Shown piece by piece: positions 27,916 through 41,692 of a DNA stretch of 64,000 nt. The stretch is from Dictyostelium discoideum. Its lineage: Eukaryota. Where the stretch lies: positions 5,696,001 through 5,760,000 of the forward strand of contig CM000151.3 in NCBI GenBank assembly GCA_000004695.1. Reading direction: 5' to 3'. The translations under genes were made by a program, and so were the position numbers. How positions within the stretch are numbered: the stretch's first letter is position 1; each line of letters starts with the position of its first letter. The notes under the pieces are model-generated. The model was not told the origin of the DNA and did not search any database. It saw only the letters and a program-made list of their open reading frames with translations.

Positions 27916-28704
27916 TTCTTAATTTTTTAATATATGTAATATAAAATGACAATGAATTAAAAAAAAAAAAAAAAAAAAGAAAAATAAAAAAAAAATAAAA
28001 AAAAAAGTTGAAAAAAAGTTTTATTGAGACTTGGGGTAGTACAATAAAATAAAAAAAAAAGTTTTGTTGAATATTTGGGTAGTACAATAAAATAAAAAAA
28101 TAAAAATTATAAAAAAAAAATTAAAAATTAAAAAATAAAAAATAAAAAAAAGAAATCTAAGGTTTGGTCACCACGTTTTAAAAGAGTTTTTTTTATTTTT
28201 TATTTTTTTAATTTATTTAAATATAAGATATCTTCTTTTTATTTTAATTAATTATTTTTATTTTTTTTTTTTATTTTTTTTTATTTTTTATTTTTTATTT
28301 TTTTTTTTGATCATTTAATTAAATGATTTAAAAGGTTTGCCAGAGATAATAAAGAAATTGATTGTTTATTATTATTACTACTACTATTATTATTATTTTT
28401 TTTTTTTTTTTTTAATTTTATTTTTTTTTTTTTTTTTAATTTCATATTGCCACTATCACCTGGTGATTATATTTTAATATTTACACATGTAAAAACATAT
28501 GAAAAATCACTTTAATGGCGTAATTAAAACGGTTTTTTTAAAAAAATATATTTTTTAATTTTTTTTTTTTAATTTTTTTATTTTTTCTTTTTTTTTTTTT
28601 TTTTTTTTTTTTTTTGGTGTTTATAAAATTTTTTTTTTTGAAAATTTTTTTTTTTTTTTTTTTTCGTTTTTTTAATTTTATAAATAAATAAATATATACA
28701 CAAA

Positions 28705-29192
28705 ATGTCAGATATTATTGCAAGAGGTAACGTCGAAAACGGTGACAAACTTTTCAAAGCAAGATGTGCTCAATGTCACACCACTGCTAATGTAAGTTTA
28801 CTTTTTCTTTTTCTTTTTTTTTTTAATAATCAAATAAAATCTTAAAAAAATAAAAAAAATAAAAAAAATAAAAAAACAAAACCCACACATATTTATTAAA
28901 ATATGATCATGTGCGATATTTTTATTTATTTTTAATTTATCTTTTTTTTTTTAATTAAACAAAAGGAAATAAATAAATATTAATGTCCATAAAAAAAAAA
29001 AAAAAAAAAAAAAAAAATAGGGTGCACCAAACAAACAAGGTCCAAATCTTTACGGTTTATTCTTTCCTAAATCACGTTCCTTCCCTGGTTATGCCTACTC
29101 TGACCCCAACAAAAACACTGGAAAGTTTTGTTTTATTCATTACTTATAAATTTTCATTTTTTTCCTTCCATCAAAAAGGATAATTATCCACG

Positions 29193-29267
<75 letters not shown>

Positions 29268-29465
29268 AACCAAAATACAAACGATACTAATTAGGACGAA
29301 AATAATTTTAAAATAATAGGTATCATGTGGGGTGAACAAACTCTCTTTGATTACTTAGAAAATCCAAAGAAATACATTCCAAAGACTAAAATGGCCTTTG
29401 CTGGTTTCAAATCTGAACAAGATAGAGCTGATGTTGTCGCTTACCTTGAACAATCAACTAAATAA
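28705..29465 (+). CDS. cytC: Cytochrome c (111 aa); join(28705..28791,29021..29119,29320..29465)
   Basis: Heme-binding CAQCHT, conserved GPNLYGLF..., [36 protein letters not shown] (Met ligand). Intron 1 is 229 nt (GTAAGT..AG). Intron 2 (29120..29319) reads GAAAGT...AG, i.e. non-canonical (see findings). Confidence 0.85.
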
Positions 29466-29840
29466 ACACACAATATAAATAAACTACTCAACTAAATAAA
29501 CACAATATAAATAACTTGATTTCTTTTTTAACAATATAAATAACATGGTTTCTTTTTTTCTTATTTATTTATATTATTAATAAAATAATTATATATTCAC
29601 CCGTATTTTTCACACATAAAAAAAGAAAGTGTGACAGGTTGGAATGTTTGTCAGTTTCAAAAAATAAAAATTTTGTGGATGAAATTTAATATTAACAATA
29701 TAAATAAACTTAATTTTCTTTTTCTCATAATTATTTATTTATATTATTAATAAAATAATTATATTTCCACCCTGTATTTTTTTAAAATAAATAAAAAAAA
29801 AGAAAGTGTAAAAAGTTGGAAAGTTTGTGAGTTTCAAAAA
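29448..29840. repeat. Nested tandem repeats in the cytC 3' flank: three copies of a roughly 30-bp unit and two copies of a roughly 140-bp unit
   Basis: The 30-bp unit aaataaacacaatataaataa+ occurs three times in tandem from about 29458 to 29560; the first copy contains the cytC stop codon. The large units at 29530..29667 and 29696..29840 are about 85% identical (ttatttatttatattattaataaaataattatat...agaaagtgt.a.a.gttgga.(a)tgtttgt.agtttcaaaaaat). Confidence 0.8.
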
Positions 29841-29921
29841 ATTAATGGGAGGGCATAGAAAATAAAAAAATAAAAAAAAAAAAAAAAAAAAGAGGGCAAC
29901 AAACCCACCAGCGCCACATAA

Positions 29922-30033
29922 AATTAGTAAGAAAGTTATTTCCAGATAAATTAAAGTTATTTTCAGATTCACTATCGCAAAAACGTGATAATTTATTAAT
30001 TATATTGTTTTCTGAATAAAGGAATTATGCCAG
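29922..30033 (+). pseudogene. Fragment copy (two pieces, about 91 + 13 bp) of the TVP38/DedA-family gene located at 40589..41692
   Basis: 29922..30012 is about 97% identical to 41339..41433 (..ttagtaagaaagttatttccagataaattaaagttattttcagattcactatcgcaaaaacgtgataatttattaa.ttatat.gttttc). 30021..30033 (ggaattatgccag) matches 41528..41540. The antisense ORFs 29739..29972 and 41184..41390 both begin MNLKITLIYLEITFLL. There is no intact reading frame, so it is non-functional. Confidence 0.75.
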
Positions 30034-31072
30034 ACATAAAATTAGTAACTTTTAACAACTTTAATACTGAAATTTTTACACCCTTACAAAAAATAAAAAT
30101 AAAAATAAATTTTTTTTTTTTTTTTAATTTGTGAGTGAAATTTCGTGAAATTTCATGTTCAACACTTTTTAAAAATAGAATTAAATTAAATTAAATAAAA
30201 TATTATTGAAAATAATTGTATATTCGAAAAAAATTAATATGATCCTGTTACTTGATCTTTTAATACTTATTTATCATTTTCATTTATGAACTTTAATTTG
30301 ATTGTATAATAATTTGTGCAAAATTTTTTAAAAATTAAGATTAGTGTCTTTATTGGAAAATCAATATAGAATTCATAAAATTTATAAGTTAAAATTTAAA
30401 TTTGATGAAGATAGAGAATTGGTAGTAAAAGGTGTTAAGATGACCTTGAATAATATGGATTACTAAATTTTTCAAAATTATTATTTGCAGCGATGGTAAT
30501 GATTAAATGATATTTAAAATTGGTCAACCGTTCAAACTTTAGATAAAAGACTTAGAGGGCATGAATATCCTTTAAATGGTTGTTTCAAAGTATGGGCAAT
30601 GATGGCCCTTTCCAAAATTTAAGATGTGAAGGTTATGTATGTATGCATTGGGTTCCTTTATGGCAAATATTTTGGAATCCAATTTAATTGAAAAAACCAA
30701 TTAAATTTTAATATGAACCAGGTTCGATTACTGATTTGGCAGTTCTTGCATTCAATTCAAACTCATTACTTTTTTTAATACATATATATATATGTACTAA
30801 TATTAACAATTTAAATTTAATAGACTCATATACAATATTCAGGTTCAATACAATCTCGACAATAATCATTTTTTATCTTAAACATCAACACATGTATAGA
30901 TAAATTATTAGGGAAAATTAATTTTTATTGTTATAATTTGGATTGTTTTATCTAAATAAAAGCAATTAAACATATCCAAAATTATTTAAAAAAAATAAAC
31001 AATTAATTGATTTTTTCTTTTAAATAGAAATTTAGTAGTATATTTATTATTTATTTTTTATTATTATTATTA

Positions 31073-31178
31073 TCAATCAAAATTATAGTTAGTTTCTTCT
31101 TGGTCATCTTGTTCTCTCATCATTGCAATTGTTTTACTCATGGCCTCTAAATTGAATTTTGCGATTTTCATTACTTTT

Positions 31179-31231
<53 letters not shown>

Positions 31232-34098
31232 TTGATCAATTAATTGTTGTTGTTGGTCACTTTCATGATTAGTTTTGTCGAGATCATTTTTGAAAGTTTC
31301 AGTGCTATCTAAATTATCTTTTTTTGTTTCAATACTTTCAATTTTATTATCAGATAAAATTGAATCCTCTTTTTTATCATTATTATTATTAGTAGTACTA
31401 TATATTTGTTGTTCTTGTTGTAATGATAACGAGGATATTGGTGTGGGAGTTGTTGTTATTGAGGTTGAAGTTGAAGAGGGGTGAGATGGTGATTGTGATT
31501 TGATATTTGTTATTACATTATCTGTATTTGTATCTATATCTGTTGTTGTTGTTGTTGTTGTTTCTGGTGTGGTATCAGAAGTAGTTGTTGTTGGTAATAA
31601 AACTGGTGAAGAAATTGGCGAAGAATTTGGTGATATTAAAATTGCTGATGGTTGTTGTTGTTGTTGCTGTTGCTGTTGTTGTTGTTGTTGTTGTTTTTGT
31701 AATGTTATAGTTGAAGTTAATTTATTTACAATTAAATTGAAAAAGAGAATTATATAAGATATCATAAAGAATTTATAAAGTATATTGATATATGGTGAAG
31801 TTTTCTTTGTTCTCTTTAAGATTTGTACAGTATTTTCTAAAGATTTTGATTTATTGAATAACTTTGTAATTGAAGTTAATGTTGAATCGATATAGGGTTT
31901 AGTTTTATCTAATTTCGATTGAATTTCAAATTGTCTCTCTTGATTCTCCAATACGAATTGTTTTGATTTTTCACTTGATCTATTTAGAGTTTCAAAATTT
32001 GTAAAGAGATCAAATTTGAATTGTTTAGATTTATCCTCCAATTGATCCAATTCCTTACCTTGTTGAAGGATTCTCTCTTCCAATGAATCATATCTTTTTC
32101 TTAGATCAGAGATTTCAATCACTTTAGGACGTAATTGCAACATTTCTCTATAGGCTCTTGAAAGTTGACGATTTCTGCCAGGTTTTTGAAATTCAATGAT
32201 TACACTATCGTCACCACTACTACTTCTAATATCATCATCACCAGCACCACCAGCACCACCACCATCGTCATCATAATCATCATCATTATTCAATGAATTT
32301 AATACAGAATTTACATTTTTACTTAACGATGATGAATTATTTTGATGATTTCTATGATGAGATTTCTTATTTTTACCAAATCCAAATAAATGATTCTTTT
32401 TTAATGGAAATGATGGCATTTGAATATTTGGTTTACTTATACCATCATTAAATAAACCTTTAATATTAGTTTGAATCTTTTTTAATCTACTACTACCATC
32501 AAATGATGGTAAAATATTAAATGGTTGTTTTCCTGATGATGATGATGTTGGTGTAGTTGGATTATTATTATTATTATTATTGGTAGTATCATTACTATAT
32601 GTATTTGGTGTAGATTCTAAATTATTTTGTAAATTTCTATTTTGACTATGTGATAAAGTTAATGATAATCTATTTGGATTTAACTTTCTACGTAATAAAC
32701 TTTGTCTTTTACTCTTTGCACTATCTGAATCTTTTAATACTGATTCTAAATTTGATGATGATACATGTTGATATTGTCCATTATTATTATTATTATTATT
32801 ATTGTTATTGTTATTATTTTCAGATTCAGGTGGTGTATTTGTTGAATAACTTCTTTTATGATCACGATGAAATTTAAATATATGATGTTGTATTGGCGCG
32901 TCATAATCTGTTGAACTTGATGATGATAATATTGATTTTTTTGGGTATGAAGATGATGGAATTGGTGGTGGAGGAGGTGGAGGTGGTGGTGTAGGTGGTG
33001 CACCTCCATTACCACTACTACTATTACTACTACCACTACTGAATAAACTATGAAATGGTTTATTTTTTAATGTTTGCTTTAAATTAATTTCCAATATTGA
33101 TTTCTTTTGACTAATCTTTCTTTTATGCATTAATGGATTATATCTTGAATTCTTTTCACATTCAAATAAATAACTATAAAAATCTTCCATCTTTCTTTTA
33201 CATATTGCTGATTTTTGTAAAGTTTCTTCTGAAAACTCTTCAAAATTATGATTATTATTATTATTATTATTAATATTACTACTATTGGTATTATTAATAG
33301 TTGTGGAATTATTAGATAAATTACCATATGGTTGATGATGATAAGTTGCAGATAAATCAATGATTGGTTGTGGTATTGGTTGTTGGTGTGGTTGTTGTAA
33401 AAATGTTGATATTGATGGTGAATGACTTAAAAATGTTTTTGGCGATGATGAAGCACTATTACAAAGTTCACTCGATTGTTGTGGCGATGATGATTGCATA
33501 TATGCTTGATTATGATGTAATTGACGATACTGATTAATATTTGGTGATAAATGAAAATTATCAATTGATGGTGAACCTGCAACTGATGAAGATGGTGTTG
33601 ATACTATAAATGGCGATGTTATTGTTTGCTGTTGCTGTTGTTGTTGTTGTTGTTGATTTAAATTTGGTGATTTTAATAAAACTTGTTTCTTATTAATTTC
33701 AGATGTTTGTAGTTGCTGCTGTTGTTGTTGCTGTTGTTGTAGAGTTGGTAGTGGTGGAGTTGGTGGTGGTGAATGCGATGATGGTGGATCAATTGATAGA
33801 CTTGGTAATTCAATAACTGTATTATTCGTTGCACTTGATAATGTTGCATCTGATTCATCAGTATCATCAAAATCTTGACCACCAAATGTTGGATTCGATG
33901 GCAAACTTGATGAACCACTAAAAACATTTGTCCTTGAATTACCACGATGTTGTCCCAATGGGAATAATCCACCACCTATAGTAGTATTAGTTGTAGTAGT
34001 AGTAGTAGTTGTAGTATTATTATTATTATTACTATTCACATTATTACTGCTAGATTTAAGTGGAGAAGTAGGTGTAGATTTACTACTACTATTATTAC

Positions 34099-37591: not shown

Positions 37592-37633
37592 TAAATTATT
37601 CAGGTTTATCAGAAAAAAAACCTGAATAATTTA
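37592..37633. promoter_or_regulatory. Perfect 13-bp inverted repeat TAAATTATTCAGG-(16 nt)-CCTGAATAATTTA about 60-100 bp upstream of the EGF-like gene ATG
   Basis: Directly visible. Candidate promoter palindrome. The degenerate copy B retains only one half (cctgataaaattt). Confidence 0.4.
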
Positions 37634-37693
37634 TTTTTTTTTTTTTTTTTCTCATCAAATTTTTCACTCTCACATCTTATACACACAGACAAA

Positions 37694-38524
37694 ATGAAAA
37701 TTTTATTATTACTATTTTTAATAGTTTTATTAAATGTTTCTTTCACAATGGCTTGGGAAGAAAGTGGTGAAACATATTATCCAGTATACCCACCAGGCAG
37801 TAAAAAATGTCATAATGATTGCAATTATCAACCATATCTTTGTTACAATGGTATTTGTTCATGTCCTTATGGATACAATCTTAATCCATACGATTGCAGT
37901 GATAAATGTTATTATGCAGGTAAGATAATCTTTAATAATAATAAATAATAATAAATAATAATAAATAATAAATAATAATACTAATAGTAATAATTTAATA
38001 CTACTACTACTACTTTAGGTTGTACAAAATCTATAGATTCAATTAGTGATACCACTCTTAAAGGTGGACCAATTACTTTATTAGGATGGTTTGATAATGA
38101 TTATTCATCAATTTTTATCACTGTTGATGGTGTTAATTGTCCAATTTATTCAAATTCTTCAACAAGTGTAACTTGTTTAGCACCAAAAATCGGTGGTTCA
38201 ATGAACCCACATTTATATATAGTAGAAACTACATTCACTGATAGCAATAATAACACAATGATGGAAATATTTAAAACAGTTAGTTATAATTCCACAAATT
38301 GTTTAAATCAATGCTCAGGTGTTGGTTCATGTGATGAGAATGGAAATTGCAATTGTTTATCTGGTTACTCTGGTGAAGATTGTAGTATTATTCCATCACC
38401 AGCTCATTCATCCTCATCATCATCACCAACTGATAAAGGTTATTTTACAATTCAAATCACTCCATTTACTTTAATTTTATTATTCATTTTCATTTTAATT
38501 ACTATAATTACTTCAAAAAAATAA
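37694..38524 (+). CDS. Secreted/type-I membrane protein with signal peptide, Cys-rich module, EGF-like module and C-terminal TM; join(37694..37919,38019..38524)
   Basis: Real ATG at 37694. Signal peptide MKILLLLFLIVLLNVS. Exon 1 is Cys-rich (CHNDCNYQPYLCYNGICSCPYGYNLNPYDCSDKCYYAG). Donor G|GTAAGA (phase 1), 99-nt intron, acceptor ...tactttag. Exon 2 contains CLNQCSGVGSCDENGNCNCLSGYSGEDC (EGF-like) and a C-terminal hydrophobic anchor. Confidence 0.7.
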
Positions 38525-39144: not shown

Positions 39145-39237
39145 TTTGGTGATCGTCATCATAAAATCAAATCTCAATTTTTTTTTTTTTCTTCAAGTTT
39201 TTTTCCTGATAAAATTTCCTTTTTTTTTTTTTTTCTT

Positions 39238-39400
39238 TTCTCATCAATTTTTCACTCTCACATCTTATACACACACACACACAGACAAAATGAAAATTTT
39301 ATTATTACTATTTTTAACAGTTTTATTAAATGTTTCTTCAAGATAATCTTATTCACCAATTTCTATCAATATTGTTGTTAATTGCCCAATTTATTTATTT
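39238..39400 (+). pseudogene. Degenerate remnant of the EGF-like gene: 5' flank + start codon + signal peptide + a fragment of exon 2 only
   Basis: 39238..39335 is about 93% identical to 37651..37745 (ctcatcaa.tttttcactctcacatcttatacacaca...gacaaaatgaaaattttattattactatttttaa.agttttattaaatgtttc). It then jumps to an exon-2 fragment (..gttgttaattgcccaatttatt matches 38130..38155). The ORF 39146..39346 ends after the signal peptide. Confidence 0.65.
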
Positions 39401-40588: not shown

Positions 40589-40760
40589 ATGGAAATCGAT
40601 AACCAAAATATAAATAATATAAATAATAATAATATACACAATAATATAAATAATAATAATATAAATAAAAGGAATATAGAGAATAATATAAATAATATAA
40701 ATAATATAAATAATAATATATCAATGAAGAATAAAAATAATAATATCGACAATAAAAAAA

Positions 40761-40806
<46 letters not shown>

Positions 40807-41692
40807 TAGCATAAGTAATAATAATAATAATAATAATAAATCATTTGGATTATATTCATTAGAACAACCAGCACCATTACCTTTATGGTTATTAGTTATA
40901 GTATTTGGTGTTTCAATTTCAGTTATAGTATTTTTATTTTTAAATTTTCCAAGTTTATCTCCTCAACACAAACAATTAATTCGTTTACCTAAAAACTTTA
41001 AAGATGTTAAATTATTAAGTGATATTTTATCTCAGTATACTGATGATAATTATTTTATTGTAATTACTACTTTTGGTGTTATTTATACATTGTAAGTAAA
41101 AAAGAAAAAGAAAAAAAAGATTTTATTTTTTTAAATGTTATATTAATTTATTTATTTATTTATTTATTTTTTTTTATTATTTATTAATAGTTTACAAGCA
41201 TTTTCAATACCAGGATCAGTATTTTTAAGTTTTTTATCAGGTGGATTATTTGGATTAAAAGTTGGATTTCCATTAGTTTGCTTTGTAGCAACATTAGGTG
41301 CAACATTTTCCTATTTAATATCATATTATATTGGAAGAAATTTAGTAAGAAAGTTATTTCCAGATAAATTAAAGTTATTTTCAGATTCACTATCGCAAAA
41401 ACGTGATAATTTATTAAATTATATCGTTTTCTTGCGTATTACACCATTCTTACCAAATTGGTTCATAAATTTAGCATCTCCATTGTTGGATGTTCCAATT
41501 CATACATTTGCCATTGGCACCTTTATTGGAATTATGCCAGCCACCTTTTTGGCTGTAAAAGCTGGAATTCAAATCCAAAACATTCAAAATCCTTCCGATA
41601 TTTTCGATTTAAAATCAATTTTAACAATGGCAGCTTTAGCTTTATTATCTATTTTACCAACTTTAATTCAAAAAAAGTTAAAAGTTAATTAA
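40589..41692 (+). CDS. TVP38/TMEM64/DedA-family ('SNARE-associated Golgi protein' family) membrane protein; join(40589..41091,41191..41692)
   Basis: Real ATG at 40589. Asn-rich N-terminus, then a TM. Donor TT|GTAAGT (phase 2), 99-nt intron, acceptor ...ttaatag. Exon 2 carries the family signature G.....F.....R..P.LP....N...G......F...T.IG..P (YIVFLRITPFLPNWFINLASPLLDVPIHTFAIGTFIGIMP). Confidence 0.8.

What the first reader, a model, noticed from the sequence alone, without database searches (positions are those of the whole stretch)
29448..30050. cytC 3' flank is a repeat nest that captured a fragment of the TVP38/DedA gene from 11 kb away
The last codons of cytC, its stop codon and the 3' UTR lie in a triple tandem roughly 30-bp repeat. 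This is followed by two roughly 140-bp tandem units (29530..29667 and 29696..29840). Then comes a roughly 91-bp near-perfect copy of internal coding sequence of the TVP38-family gene (29922..30012 = 41339..41433). A second 13-bp piece (30021..30033 = 41528..41540) follows, with about 95 bp of the source gene missing between the two pieces. Both pieces are preceded by the same short motif CATAAAATTAGTAA (29916 and 30027). This suggests microhomology-mediated template switching or repair rather than retroposition: there is no poly-A and it is not a full cDNA copy. It is a record of ectopic gene-fragment transfer within about 11 kb.
Basis: seen in the sequence. Interest (0 to 1): 0.6.

Follow-up and report, generated by a model that had tools for sequence, protein, structure and literature searches.

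The report
Decayed gene-fragment patch beside cytC
A roughly 200-base piece of a membrane-protein gene was copied once, long ago, into the spacer behind the Dictyostelium cytochrome c gene and has since decayed as neutral DNA; this is a real but ordinary scar of DNA repair or replication.

Summary
The window is Dictyostelium discoideum AX4 chromosome 2. The core observation holds. Bases 29924-30013 copy exon 2 of the VTT/TMEM41-type gene (41342-41432) at 97.8% identity. Bases 30021-30033 equal 41528-41540. The 3' flank of cytC also carries short repeats and two units of about 150 nt.

One detail is wrong. ACATAAAATTAGTAA does not precede both pieces. It is a perfect 15-nt direct repeat (29916-29930 and 30034-30048) that brackets the whole insert.

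Three other D. discoideum assemblies carry the insert with identical junctions and the same flanking repeat. Two of them keep a different middle part of the source. The original insert was therefore probably one contiguous copy of about 198 nt (41343-41540), and the AX4 "gap" is a later deletion. This rules out an assembly artefact.

Four more distant genomes have only 204-256 bp between cytC and the next gene, against 1607 bp in AX4. A sister lineage holds actin-like fragments in the same spacer.

The most likely mechanism is microhomology-primed (TTAGTAA) copying of DNA in cis during break repair or a replication template switch. A reverse-transcriptase route is not excluded, because the 15-nt duplication fits the TRE5-A range. 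The copy diverges at about the neutral rate. It is a new member of a known kind, of modest interest.

The parts
28705..29465 (+). cytC gene (three exons; stop codon 29463-29465)
   Evidence: Read. The spliced product is 100% identical to D. discoideum AX4 cytochrome c, P0001.
29454..29509 (+). 34-nt direct duplication that includes the last three codons and the stop codon of cytC (TCAACTAAATAAACAC...)
   Evidence: D6: 29454-29475 and 29488-29509, 91%. It is shared by L002, L003 and L007.
29502..29558 (+). Two-copy 29-nt tandem repeat (ACAATATAAATAAC.TG.TTTCTTTTTTA)
   Evidence: period 29, 2.0 copies, 92%. The core ACAATATAAATAA occurs 4 times in the flank.
29528..29668 (+). Long repeat unit 1
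   Evidence: 80.5% identical to unit 2 over 154 columns. It is orthologous to unit 1 of L003.
29692..29845 (+). Long repeat unit 2
   Evidence: The duplication predates the AX4/L003 split. L007 holds one truncated unit.
29916..29930 (+). Left copy of the 15-nt flanking direct repeat ACATAAAATTAGTAA. Its last 7 nt (TTAGTAA) are also identical to source 41343-41349, which is the junction microhomology.
   Evidence: (D12).
29924..30013 (+). Captured piece 1, a copy of VTT exon 2 positions 41342/3-41432
   Evidence: 97.8% over 91 columns, E = 3e-40. It is 100% identical in L001.
30014..30020 (+). 7-nt filler GAATAAA at the AX4-lineage internal deletion
   Evidence: It is not present in the source and is absent from L002/L003, which keep source sequence at this position.
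30021..30033 (+). Captured piece 2, a copy of 41528-41540. It is the 3' end of the original insert.
   Evidence: In L002/L003 this piece runs back to source 41504.
30034..30048 (+). Right copy of the 15-nt flanking direct repeat
   Evidence: (D12). The same junction is present in L001, L002 and L003.
29466..31072 (.). The whole cytC/convergent-gene spacer (1607 nt), which is lineage-specific added DNA
   Evidence: The spacer is 204-256 nt in L005, L006, L008 and L009, 678 nt in L004, about 1350 nt in L002/L003 and 2037 nt in L007.
41343..41540 (+). Inferred donor segment inside exon 2 of the VTT gene
   Evidence: It is the union of what AX4 and L002/L003 retain, with identical outer junctions.
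40589..41692 (+). Donor gene: VTT-domain (TMEM41B/stasimon-like; TVP38/DedA superfamily) protein of 334 aa. Exon 1 is 40589-41091 and exon 2 is 41191-41692.
   Evidence: The GT..AG gene model is. Homologues all carry PF09335, and the TMEM41B/stasimon hits reach E about 1e-61.

Best explanation
The block 29916-30048 is a decayed, functionless patch. In the common ancestor of the AX4/L001 and L002/L003 lineages of D. discoideum, one contiguous stretch of about 198 nt was copied from exon 2 of the VTT/TMEM41-type gene (41343-41540). The donor lies 11.4 kb downstream on the same strand. The copy went into already expanded spacer DNA behind cytC.

The copying was most likely DNA-templated. A free 3' end finishing in ...ACATAAAATTAGTAA paired through TTAGTAA with the identical heptamer in the gene. 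It was extended by about 191 nt and then rejoined the original duplex 15 nt behind the point where it had left. Alternatively, staggered ends were filled in. Either route yields the 15-nt flanking duplication.

The patch then evolved neutrally:
- The AX4/L001 lineage lost source-equivalent 41433-41527 and gained the filler GAATAAA.
- The L002/L003 lineage lost 41415-41503, a deletion between the near-repeats AATTTAT and AATTCAT, and gained a 21-nt slippage duplication.

Shown here: the copy, its direction, a single origin, the contiguous ancestor and neutral decay. Inferred: DNA rather than RNA as template, and the order of steps.
For: - Copy and donor are established.
- AX4, L001, L002 and L003 share the same left junction, right junction and 15-nt repeat, but retain different internal parts. 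Neither allele can be derived from the other.
- The copies carry the ancestral donor states. They have G where the L010/L011 donors now have A, and GGT where the AX4 donor now has GGC. The insertion is therefore older than the AX4-L002/L003 split.
- Flanking spacer differs between AX4 and L003 by 6-7% in substitutions. The aligned insert differs by about 9% as aligned (12 mismatches in 130 aligned columns), which is inflated by the non-homologous middle. There is no sign of constraint.
- My calculation from the window composition gives a 7-nt junction microhomology a chance of about 5e-4, and a specific 15-mer match about 5e-8.
- The donor lies 11.4 kb away in cis in the same orientation, and about 11.9 kb away in L003 by record coordinates. 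If donors were drawn at random from a 34-Mb genome (size from general knowledge), the chance of one lying this close is about 7e-4.
- D. discoideum encodes PolQ and DNA ligase III (PMC8529158).
- The spacer is otherwise a site of repeated rearrangement: tandem duplications, an inverted arrangement in L004, and actin-like fragments in L007.
Against: - The right junction shows no microhomology.
- A 15-nt flanking duplication is not typical of end-joining patches. It falls inside the 10-16 bp range of TRE5-A retrotransposon target-site duplications (PMC9012585).
- The copied segment lies wholly within one exon, so intron loss or retention cannot separate a DNA template from an RNA template.
- No genome with an empty target site or with the intact 198-nt allele was found.
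- The rest of the D. discoideum genome could not be searched for further copies.
Confidence: 0.6

Rival explanations
1. The capture was mediated by reverse transcriptase. A piece of VTT mRNA was reverse-transcribed at a staggered nick, either by a TRE-type non-LTR retrotransposon enzyme acting in trans or as a cDNA/RNA patch at a break. The 5' junction would then have been resolved by microhomology.
For: - The 15-nt target-site-like duplication lies within the 10-16 bp reported for new TRE5-A integrations (PMC9012585).
- The insert is in sense orientation and consists of exon sequence only.
- Microhomology occurs only at the 5' junction. From general knowledge, this is also seen at 5'-truncated LINE insertions.
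- Human class 1 templated insertions combine a target-site duplication with non-LINE cargo (PMC5110952).
Against: - No poly-A is present at the 3' junction in any of the four alleles.
- The copy ends inside the coding sequence, 152 nt before the stop codon.
- No tRNA gene, the TRE target, was found in the whole 64-kb window.
- The nick site would be ATGT/GG on the bottom strand, which is not T-rich/A.
- A donor only 11.4 kb away in cis is unexpected for a diffusible RNA.
Confidence: 0.2
2. The AX4 structure is primary. A single event with two template switches would have copied 41343-41432 and then 41528-41540, skipping 95 nt.
For: The AX4 sequence taken alone is compatible with this, including the 7-nt filler between the pieces.
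Against: L002 and L003 have the same outer junctions and flanking repeat, yet contain source 41504-41527, which AX4 lacks, and lack 41415-41432, which AX4 has. This reading would need two independent insertions from the same donor at the same base, with the same duplication.
Confidence: 0.04
3. The 91-nt segment is a dispersed repeat that merely also sits in the VTT gene, or the fragment is an assembly artefact.
For: Nothing positive. The full genome could not be searched.
Against: - The segment is in-frame and conserved within the VTT-domain protein. Nucleotide identity is 93.7-98.7% in D. citrinum, D. dimigraforme and other D. discoideum assemblies.
- Only the donor and this one copy occur in the window and in eleven related loci.
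- The copy is present at the same place in four independent assemblies.
Confidence: 0.03
4. The patch is functional. One possibility is a source of antisense or small RNA against the VTT gene, made by read-through from the convergent gene. Another is a role as part of a cytC 3' UTR isoform.
For: The patch lies between convergent genes, about 1 kb downstream of the minus-strand gene's stop codon. It has been retained in four genomes.
Against: The patch has suffered two independent deletions of about 90 nt, a 21-nt duplication and point changes, with no excess conservation over the neutral flank. Alleles share only about 86 nt of donor-derived sequence. No expression data were available.
Confidence: 0.04

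Closest known systems
Templated sequence insertions and templated sequence insertion polymorphisms (Onozawa and Aplan; PMC5110952)
   Same: A short stretch, tens to hundreds of nt, is copied from elsewhere in the genome into an unrelated site. The donor stays intact, there is microhomology at a junction, and the insert is inherited as a neutral polymorphism.
   Different: The human classes separate cleanly. Class 1 has a target-site duplication together with poly-A and a TTTT/A site. Class 2 has none of the three. This insert has a 15-nt duplication but no poly-A and no T-rich nick site. Its donor is 11 kb away in cis rather than at a distant locus.
Filler DNA and polymerase-theta templated insertions at end-joining junctions (general knowledge; PolQ is present in D. 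discoideum, PMC8529158)
   Same: Copying is primed by microhomology from a nearby template in cis, followed by rejoining. Later slippage-type deletions occur between short repeats.
   Different: From general knowledge, typical theta-mediated inserts are much shorter (a few to tens of nt) and are templated within tens to hundreds of nt of the break. Here about 191 nt were copied from 11.4 kb away.
Replication template switching (FoSTeS/MMBIR)
   Same: The donor is in cis and in the same orientation, there is microhomology at the switch, and acceptor sequence is re-copied on return, giving the flanking duplication.
   Different: The scale is far smaller than the usual kilobase-to-megabase events. 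The return junction has no microhomology.
LINE-mediated retrocopies (TRE5-A of D. discoideum; PMC9012585, PMC5391098)
   Same: A flanking duplication of 15 nt, within the reported 10-16 bp range, and exon-only cargo in sense orientation.
   Different: There is no poly-A, no mRNA 3' end and no tRNA gene at the target.
Transposon-borne capture of gene fragments (Pack-MULEs, Helitrons)
   Same: A gene fragment is relocated into non-coding DNA.
   Different: There are no terminal inverted repeats or element ends at the insert borders (one search lists no inverted repeat with arms there). No further copies were found.

Membership tests
Templated insertion / break-repair patch (class 2 TSI, filler DNA) | The insert is identical to a sequence elsewhere in the same genome, and the donor is retained. 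| tested here: met
   97.8% over 91 nt plus an exact 13-mer. The donor gene is intact and conserved.
Templated insertion / break-repair patch (class 2 TSI, filler DNA) | Microhomology or untemplated bases at the junctions. | tested here: met
   The left junction shares TTAGTAA (7 nt, or 10 of 11 when extended). The right junction has none.
Templated insertion / break-repair patch (class 2 TSI, filler DNA) | No target-site duplication. | tested here: not met
   A perfect 15-nt direct repeat brackets the insert in all four alleles.
LINE-mediated retrocopy (class 1 TSI, processed pseudogene) | Target-site duplication. | tested here: met
   15 nt, within the TRE5-A range of 10-16 bp.
LINE-mediated retrocopy (class 1 TSI, processed pseudogene) | Poly-A tail at the 3' junction, with the copy reaching an mRNA 3' end. 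| tested here: not met
   The right junction reads ...ATGCCAG|ACATAAAA in every allele. The copy ends at 41540, 152 nt before the stop codon at 41692.
LINE-mediated retrocopy (class 1 TSI, processed pseudogene) | Loss of introns. | not testable with these tools
   The donor segment lies entirely within exon 2.
LINE-mediated retrocopy (class 1 TSI, processed pseudogene) | Target preference of the resident elements: TRE elements integrate next to tRNA genes. | tested here: not met
   ARAGORN finds no tRNA gene in the 64-kb window.
Replication template switch (FoSTeS/MMBIR) | The donor is close by in cis, with microhomology at the switch points. | tested here: inconclusive
   The donor is 11.4 kb away on the same strand, with 7-nt microhomology at the outward switch but none at the return.
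Dispersed repeat family | More than two copies, not confined to one gene. | tested here: inconclusive
   Only the donor and one copy occur in the window and eleven related loci. The rest of the genome was not searchable.
Transposon-borne gene-fragment capture | Terminal inverted repeats or element termini around the fragment. | tested here: not met
   No inverted repeat has arms at 29931 and 30033. By inspection the insert ends are not complementary.

The most novel reading that the evidence does not exclude
The spacer between cytC and its convergent neighbour is a recurrent break-and-repair hotspot in the D. discoideum species complex. It has grown from about 200 bp to 1.3-2.0 kb through tandem duplication, inversion and repeated capture of exon fragments: VTT in D. 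discoideum and actin-like in D. cf. discoideum. It would then preserve a natural record of an unusual repair mode in Amoebozoa, namely long patches of about 200 nt templated in cis that carry a duplication of about 15 nt like a target-site duplication. That combination fits neither of the two described classes of templated insertion.
Probability: 0.2. Interest if true: 0.5.

Novelty: new member of a known kind. Interest (0 to 1): 0.3.

Why it matters
- It is a clean, datable natural example of a templated gene-fragment insertion in an amoebozoan. Two independently decayed alleles allow the original event to be reconstructed.
- It shows that a "two-piece" insert seen in one genome can be a secondary deletion rather than evidence for multiple template switches.
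- There is a practical consequence. A 90-nt, 98% identical second site for VTT exon 2 sits beside cytC. It could mislead read mapping, probes, guide RNAs or RNAi constructs aimed at that gene.
- If the hotspot reading is right, this spacer would be a convenient locus for studying how compact, extremely A+T-rich genomes gain intergenic DNA.

Tried and rejected
I reached the loci through the homologue search instead.
- I searched for an empty target site, using a reconstruction of the pre-insertion sequence, in L004-L009. None was found. The whole target segment 29846-30230 is specific to the clade that carries the insert.
- I tried to trace the origin of the rest of the spacer. A Pfam scan of the stop-free ORFs hit only Actin, and only in L007. 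A concatenated query of spacer ORFs against 5.8 billion proteins gave no hit at E <= 0.001. BLASTN of the spacer against the window and all loci gave no other donor.
- An Rfam scan of 28500-31500 gave only a chance-level hit (E = 0.38, far below the gathering score).
- The window holds no tRNA genes.
- AATAAAGG (30015-30022) is the reverse complement of the 8 nt just upstream of piece 2 in the donor (41520-41527). I considered a snap-back origin for the filler and rejected it as not significant in 79% A+T DNA after allowing for the number of possible positions.
- I looked for gene conversion between donor and copy. None is indicated, because the copies keep the ancestral donor states.
- The literature search found no paper on templated insertions in Dictyostelium.

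Full report
**Identity of the window.** The window is 79% A+T. The spliced product of the gene at 28705-29465 is 100% identical to cytochrome c of Dictyostelium discoideum AX4, which sits on a contig of 8,484,197 bp, chromosome 2. cytC ends at 29465. A long gene on the minus strand ends at 31073. The repeat nest therefore lies in a 1607-nt spacer between two convergent genes. The proposed donor is a two-exon gene (40589-41091 and 41191-41692, 334 aa). Its homologues all carry the VTT domain PF09335, and they include TMEM41B/stasimon at E about 1e-61.

**Check of the observation.**
- Bases 29924-30013 match 41342-41432 at 97.8% over 91 columns, E = 3e-40. Nothing else in the window matches 29400-30300 apart from the local repeats.
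- The 13-mer GGAATTATGCCAG occurs only at 30021-30033 and 41528-41540. The expectation is 0.03.
- The two long units match at 80.5% over 154 columns (29528-29668 against 29692-29845).
- The "triple 30-bp tandem" is really two features. A 34-nt duplication covers the last codons and the stop codon (D6). A two-copy 29-nt tandem follows. They share a core 13-mer present four times in the flank.
- One statement is wrong. ACATAAAATTAGTAA lies at 29916-29930 and 30034-30048, not at 30027. It is a perfect direct repeat that brackets the entire insert, and these are its only two occurrences in 64 kb.

**Related genomes.** The cytC search returned orthologues from recent chromosome-scale assemblies. 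I fetched their loci and two donor-gene loci. The loci rank as follows by identity of a neighbouring 393-aa gene.

| Locus | Organism | Identity to AX4 |
|---|---|---|
| L001 | D. discoideum | 100% |
| L002, L003 | D. discoideum | about 94% |
| L007 | D. cf. discoideum | 90.6% |
| L004 | one of three assemblies (L004-L006) sharing cytC protein P0004, which NCBI names D. citrinum | 87.8% |
| L005, L006 | D. citrinum (L006 confirmed by P0121; L005 shares P0004) | about 83-85% |
| L008 | D. dimigraforme | 82% |
| L009 | D. firmibasis | 79% |

- L001 is an independent assembly. It differs from the window at 26 substitutions, plus short gaps, over 20.7 kb.
- L001 carries the insert 100% identical over 29900-30060. 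The fragment is therefore not an assembly artefact.

**The insert is old and was originally contiguous.** L002 and L003 carry the insert at the same place. They have the same left junction, the same right junction and the same 15-nt flanking repeat (L003 at 11210 and 11349). Their internal content differs from AX4.

| Allele | Donor positions retained |
|---|---|
| AX4 / L001 | 41343-41432, then GAATAAA, then 41528-41540 |
| L002 / L003 | 41343-41414 (with an extra 21-nt tandem duplication), then 41504-41540 |

- Each allele holds donor sequence that the other lacks, so neither can be derived from the other.
- With shared junctions, the simplest history is one insertion of a contiguous copy of about 198 nt (41343-41540). 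Two independent internal deletions of 95 nt and 89 nt followed.
- The L002/L003 deletion lies between the near-repeats AATTTAT and AATTCAT. The 21-nt duplication extends an imperfect repeat already present in the donor (D11). Both are ordinary slippage products.
- The copies retain ancestral donor states at sites where present-day donors have since changed. This fits an insertion before the AX4-L002/L003 split.
- Spacer DNA flanking the insert differs between AX4 and L003 by 6-7% in substitutions. The aligned insert differs by about 9% as aligned, which is inflated by the non-homologous middle. I see no sign of selective constraint.

**The spacer as a whole.** The four most distant genomes have only 204-256 nt between cytC and the convergent gene. 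L004 has 678 nt, L002/L003 about 1350, AX4/L001 1607 and L007 2037.
- Only the first 20 nt or so and the last 50-180 nt of the AX4 spacer align to the short spacers.
- L004 holds parts of the AX4 spacer in inverted orientation.
- L007 keeps one long unit. It then continues into two fragments that match the Pfam Actin profile, at positions 281-324 (E = 0.006) and 390-409 (E = 7e-5). Each is below the gathering score on its own. This suggests an independent capture of a gene fragment, again with an internal gap, in the same spacer.
- No outgroup contains the target segment 29846-30230 or an empty site. The VTT patch was therefore laid into DNA that was itself new.
- I could not find donors for the remaining spacer sequence.

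**Mechanism.** At the left junction, the last seven bases of the flanking repeat (TTAGTAA) are identical to donor 41343-41349. The right junction has no shared bases. From the window composition, I calculate a chance of about 5e-4 for a 7-nt overlap at a fixed position, and about 5e-8 for a second copy of the specific 15-mer.
- The donor lies 11.4 kb away on the same strand, and about 11.9 kb away in L003. With a 34-Mb genome (size from general knowledge), a randomly chosen donor would lie this close with probability about 7e-4.
- On these grounds I favour DNA-templated copying in cis. A 3' end ending in TTAGTAA pairs with the gene and is extended by about 191 nt. It then rejoins the acceptor 15 nt upstream of where it left, or staggered ends are filled in. 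Either route creates the duplication.
- D. discoideum has the alternative end-joining enzymes PolQ and ligase III (PMC8529158).
- The main rival is reverse transcription of VTT mRNA at a staggered nick. The 15-nt duplication falls within the 10-16 bp measured for TRE5-A insertions (PMC9012585).
- Against the rival: there is no poly-A, the copy ends inside the coding sequence, the window has no tRNA gene, and the donor is close by in cis.
- The donor segment lies inside a single exon, so the intron test cannot be applied.

**Comparison with known kinds.** The insert works like a templated sequence insertion, or "filler" patch. The human classes are defined by a target-site duplication, poly-A and a TTTT/A site together (class 1), or by none of the three (class 2) (PMC5110952). 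This insert has the duplication alone, so it is not a clean member of either class. It is also longer, and templated from farther away, than typical polymerase-theta inserts, and far smaller than typical FoSTeS/MMBIR events (both from general knowledge). It has no transposon termini. I found no report of such insertions in Dictyostelium.

**Verdict.**
It is wrong about the meaning of the two pieces and of the motif.
- The feature is a neutral scar of repair or replication and a new member of a known kind. Interest is modest.
- The more interesting open possibility is that this convergent-gene spacer is a recurrent capture hotspot.

Noticed in passing
window 29021-29130 (cytC exon 2 and its splice donor): The AX4 sequence differs from the near-identical strain L001, and from L003, at a cluster of positions, nearly all of them G in L001/L003. 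L001/L003 read TTCGGTCGTAAATCAGGTTCCGTCGCTGG..GACGCC..AACGCTGGTAAG. AX4 reads TTCTTTCCTAAATCACGTTCCTTCCCTGG..GACCCC..AACACTGGAAAG. This turns the conserved GLFGRKSGSVAGY into [13 protein letters not shown] and destroys the GTAAG donor. It explains the 113-aa AX4 model against 110 aa in all other assemblies. The likely causes are reference sequence errors or lab-strain mutations.
   Followed up: partly
L007:10893-11062: The cytC spacer of D. cf. discoideum contains two actin-like fragments: [34 protein letters not shown] and WISKEEYDEHGPSIINKK followed by a stop codon. They match Pfam Actin positions 281-324 and 390-409, with the intervening part missing.
   Followed up: partly
window 30266-30555: About 290 nt are present in AX4 and L001 but absent from L002 and L003, within the same spacer. 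I could not decide whether this is an insertion or a deletion, and no donor was found.
   Followed up: partly
L004:10870-11106: Parts of the AX4 spacer (30231-30326 and 29638-29790) occur in inverted orientation directly behind cytC in L004.
   Followed up: no
window 39220-39338 and 37631-37742: A 120-nt duplicate at 90% identity lies 1.6 kb away from its partner. The downstream copy (39220-39338) holds upstream sequence plus an ATG and a signal-peptide-like start. L002 and L003 have two paralogous genes at this position. The AX4 copy may therefore be a remnant of a lost paralogue.
   Followed up: no
window 29195-29262 and 28990-29017: The two cytC introns contain very long uninterrupted A runs, of about 68 nt and about 28 nt.
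   Followed up: no
L007:11146-11322 and L007:12189-12335 (minus strand): Two ORF-like stretches in the L007 spacer resemble each other (...LLGLSLNLGSILGLNIDI and ...CLGLSLHLVSLLGLDINI). This suggests a duplicated fragment of unknown origin. They have no Pfam hit and no protein-database hit.
   Followed up: partly
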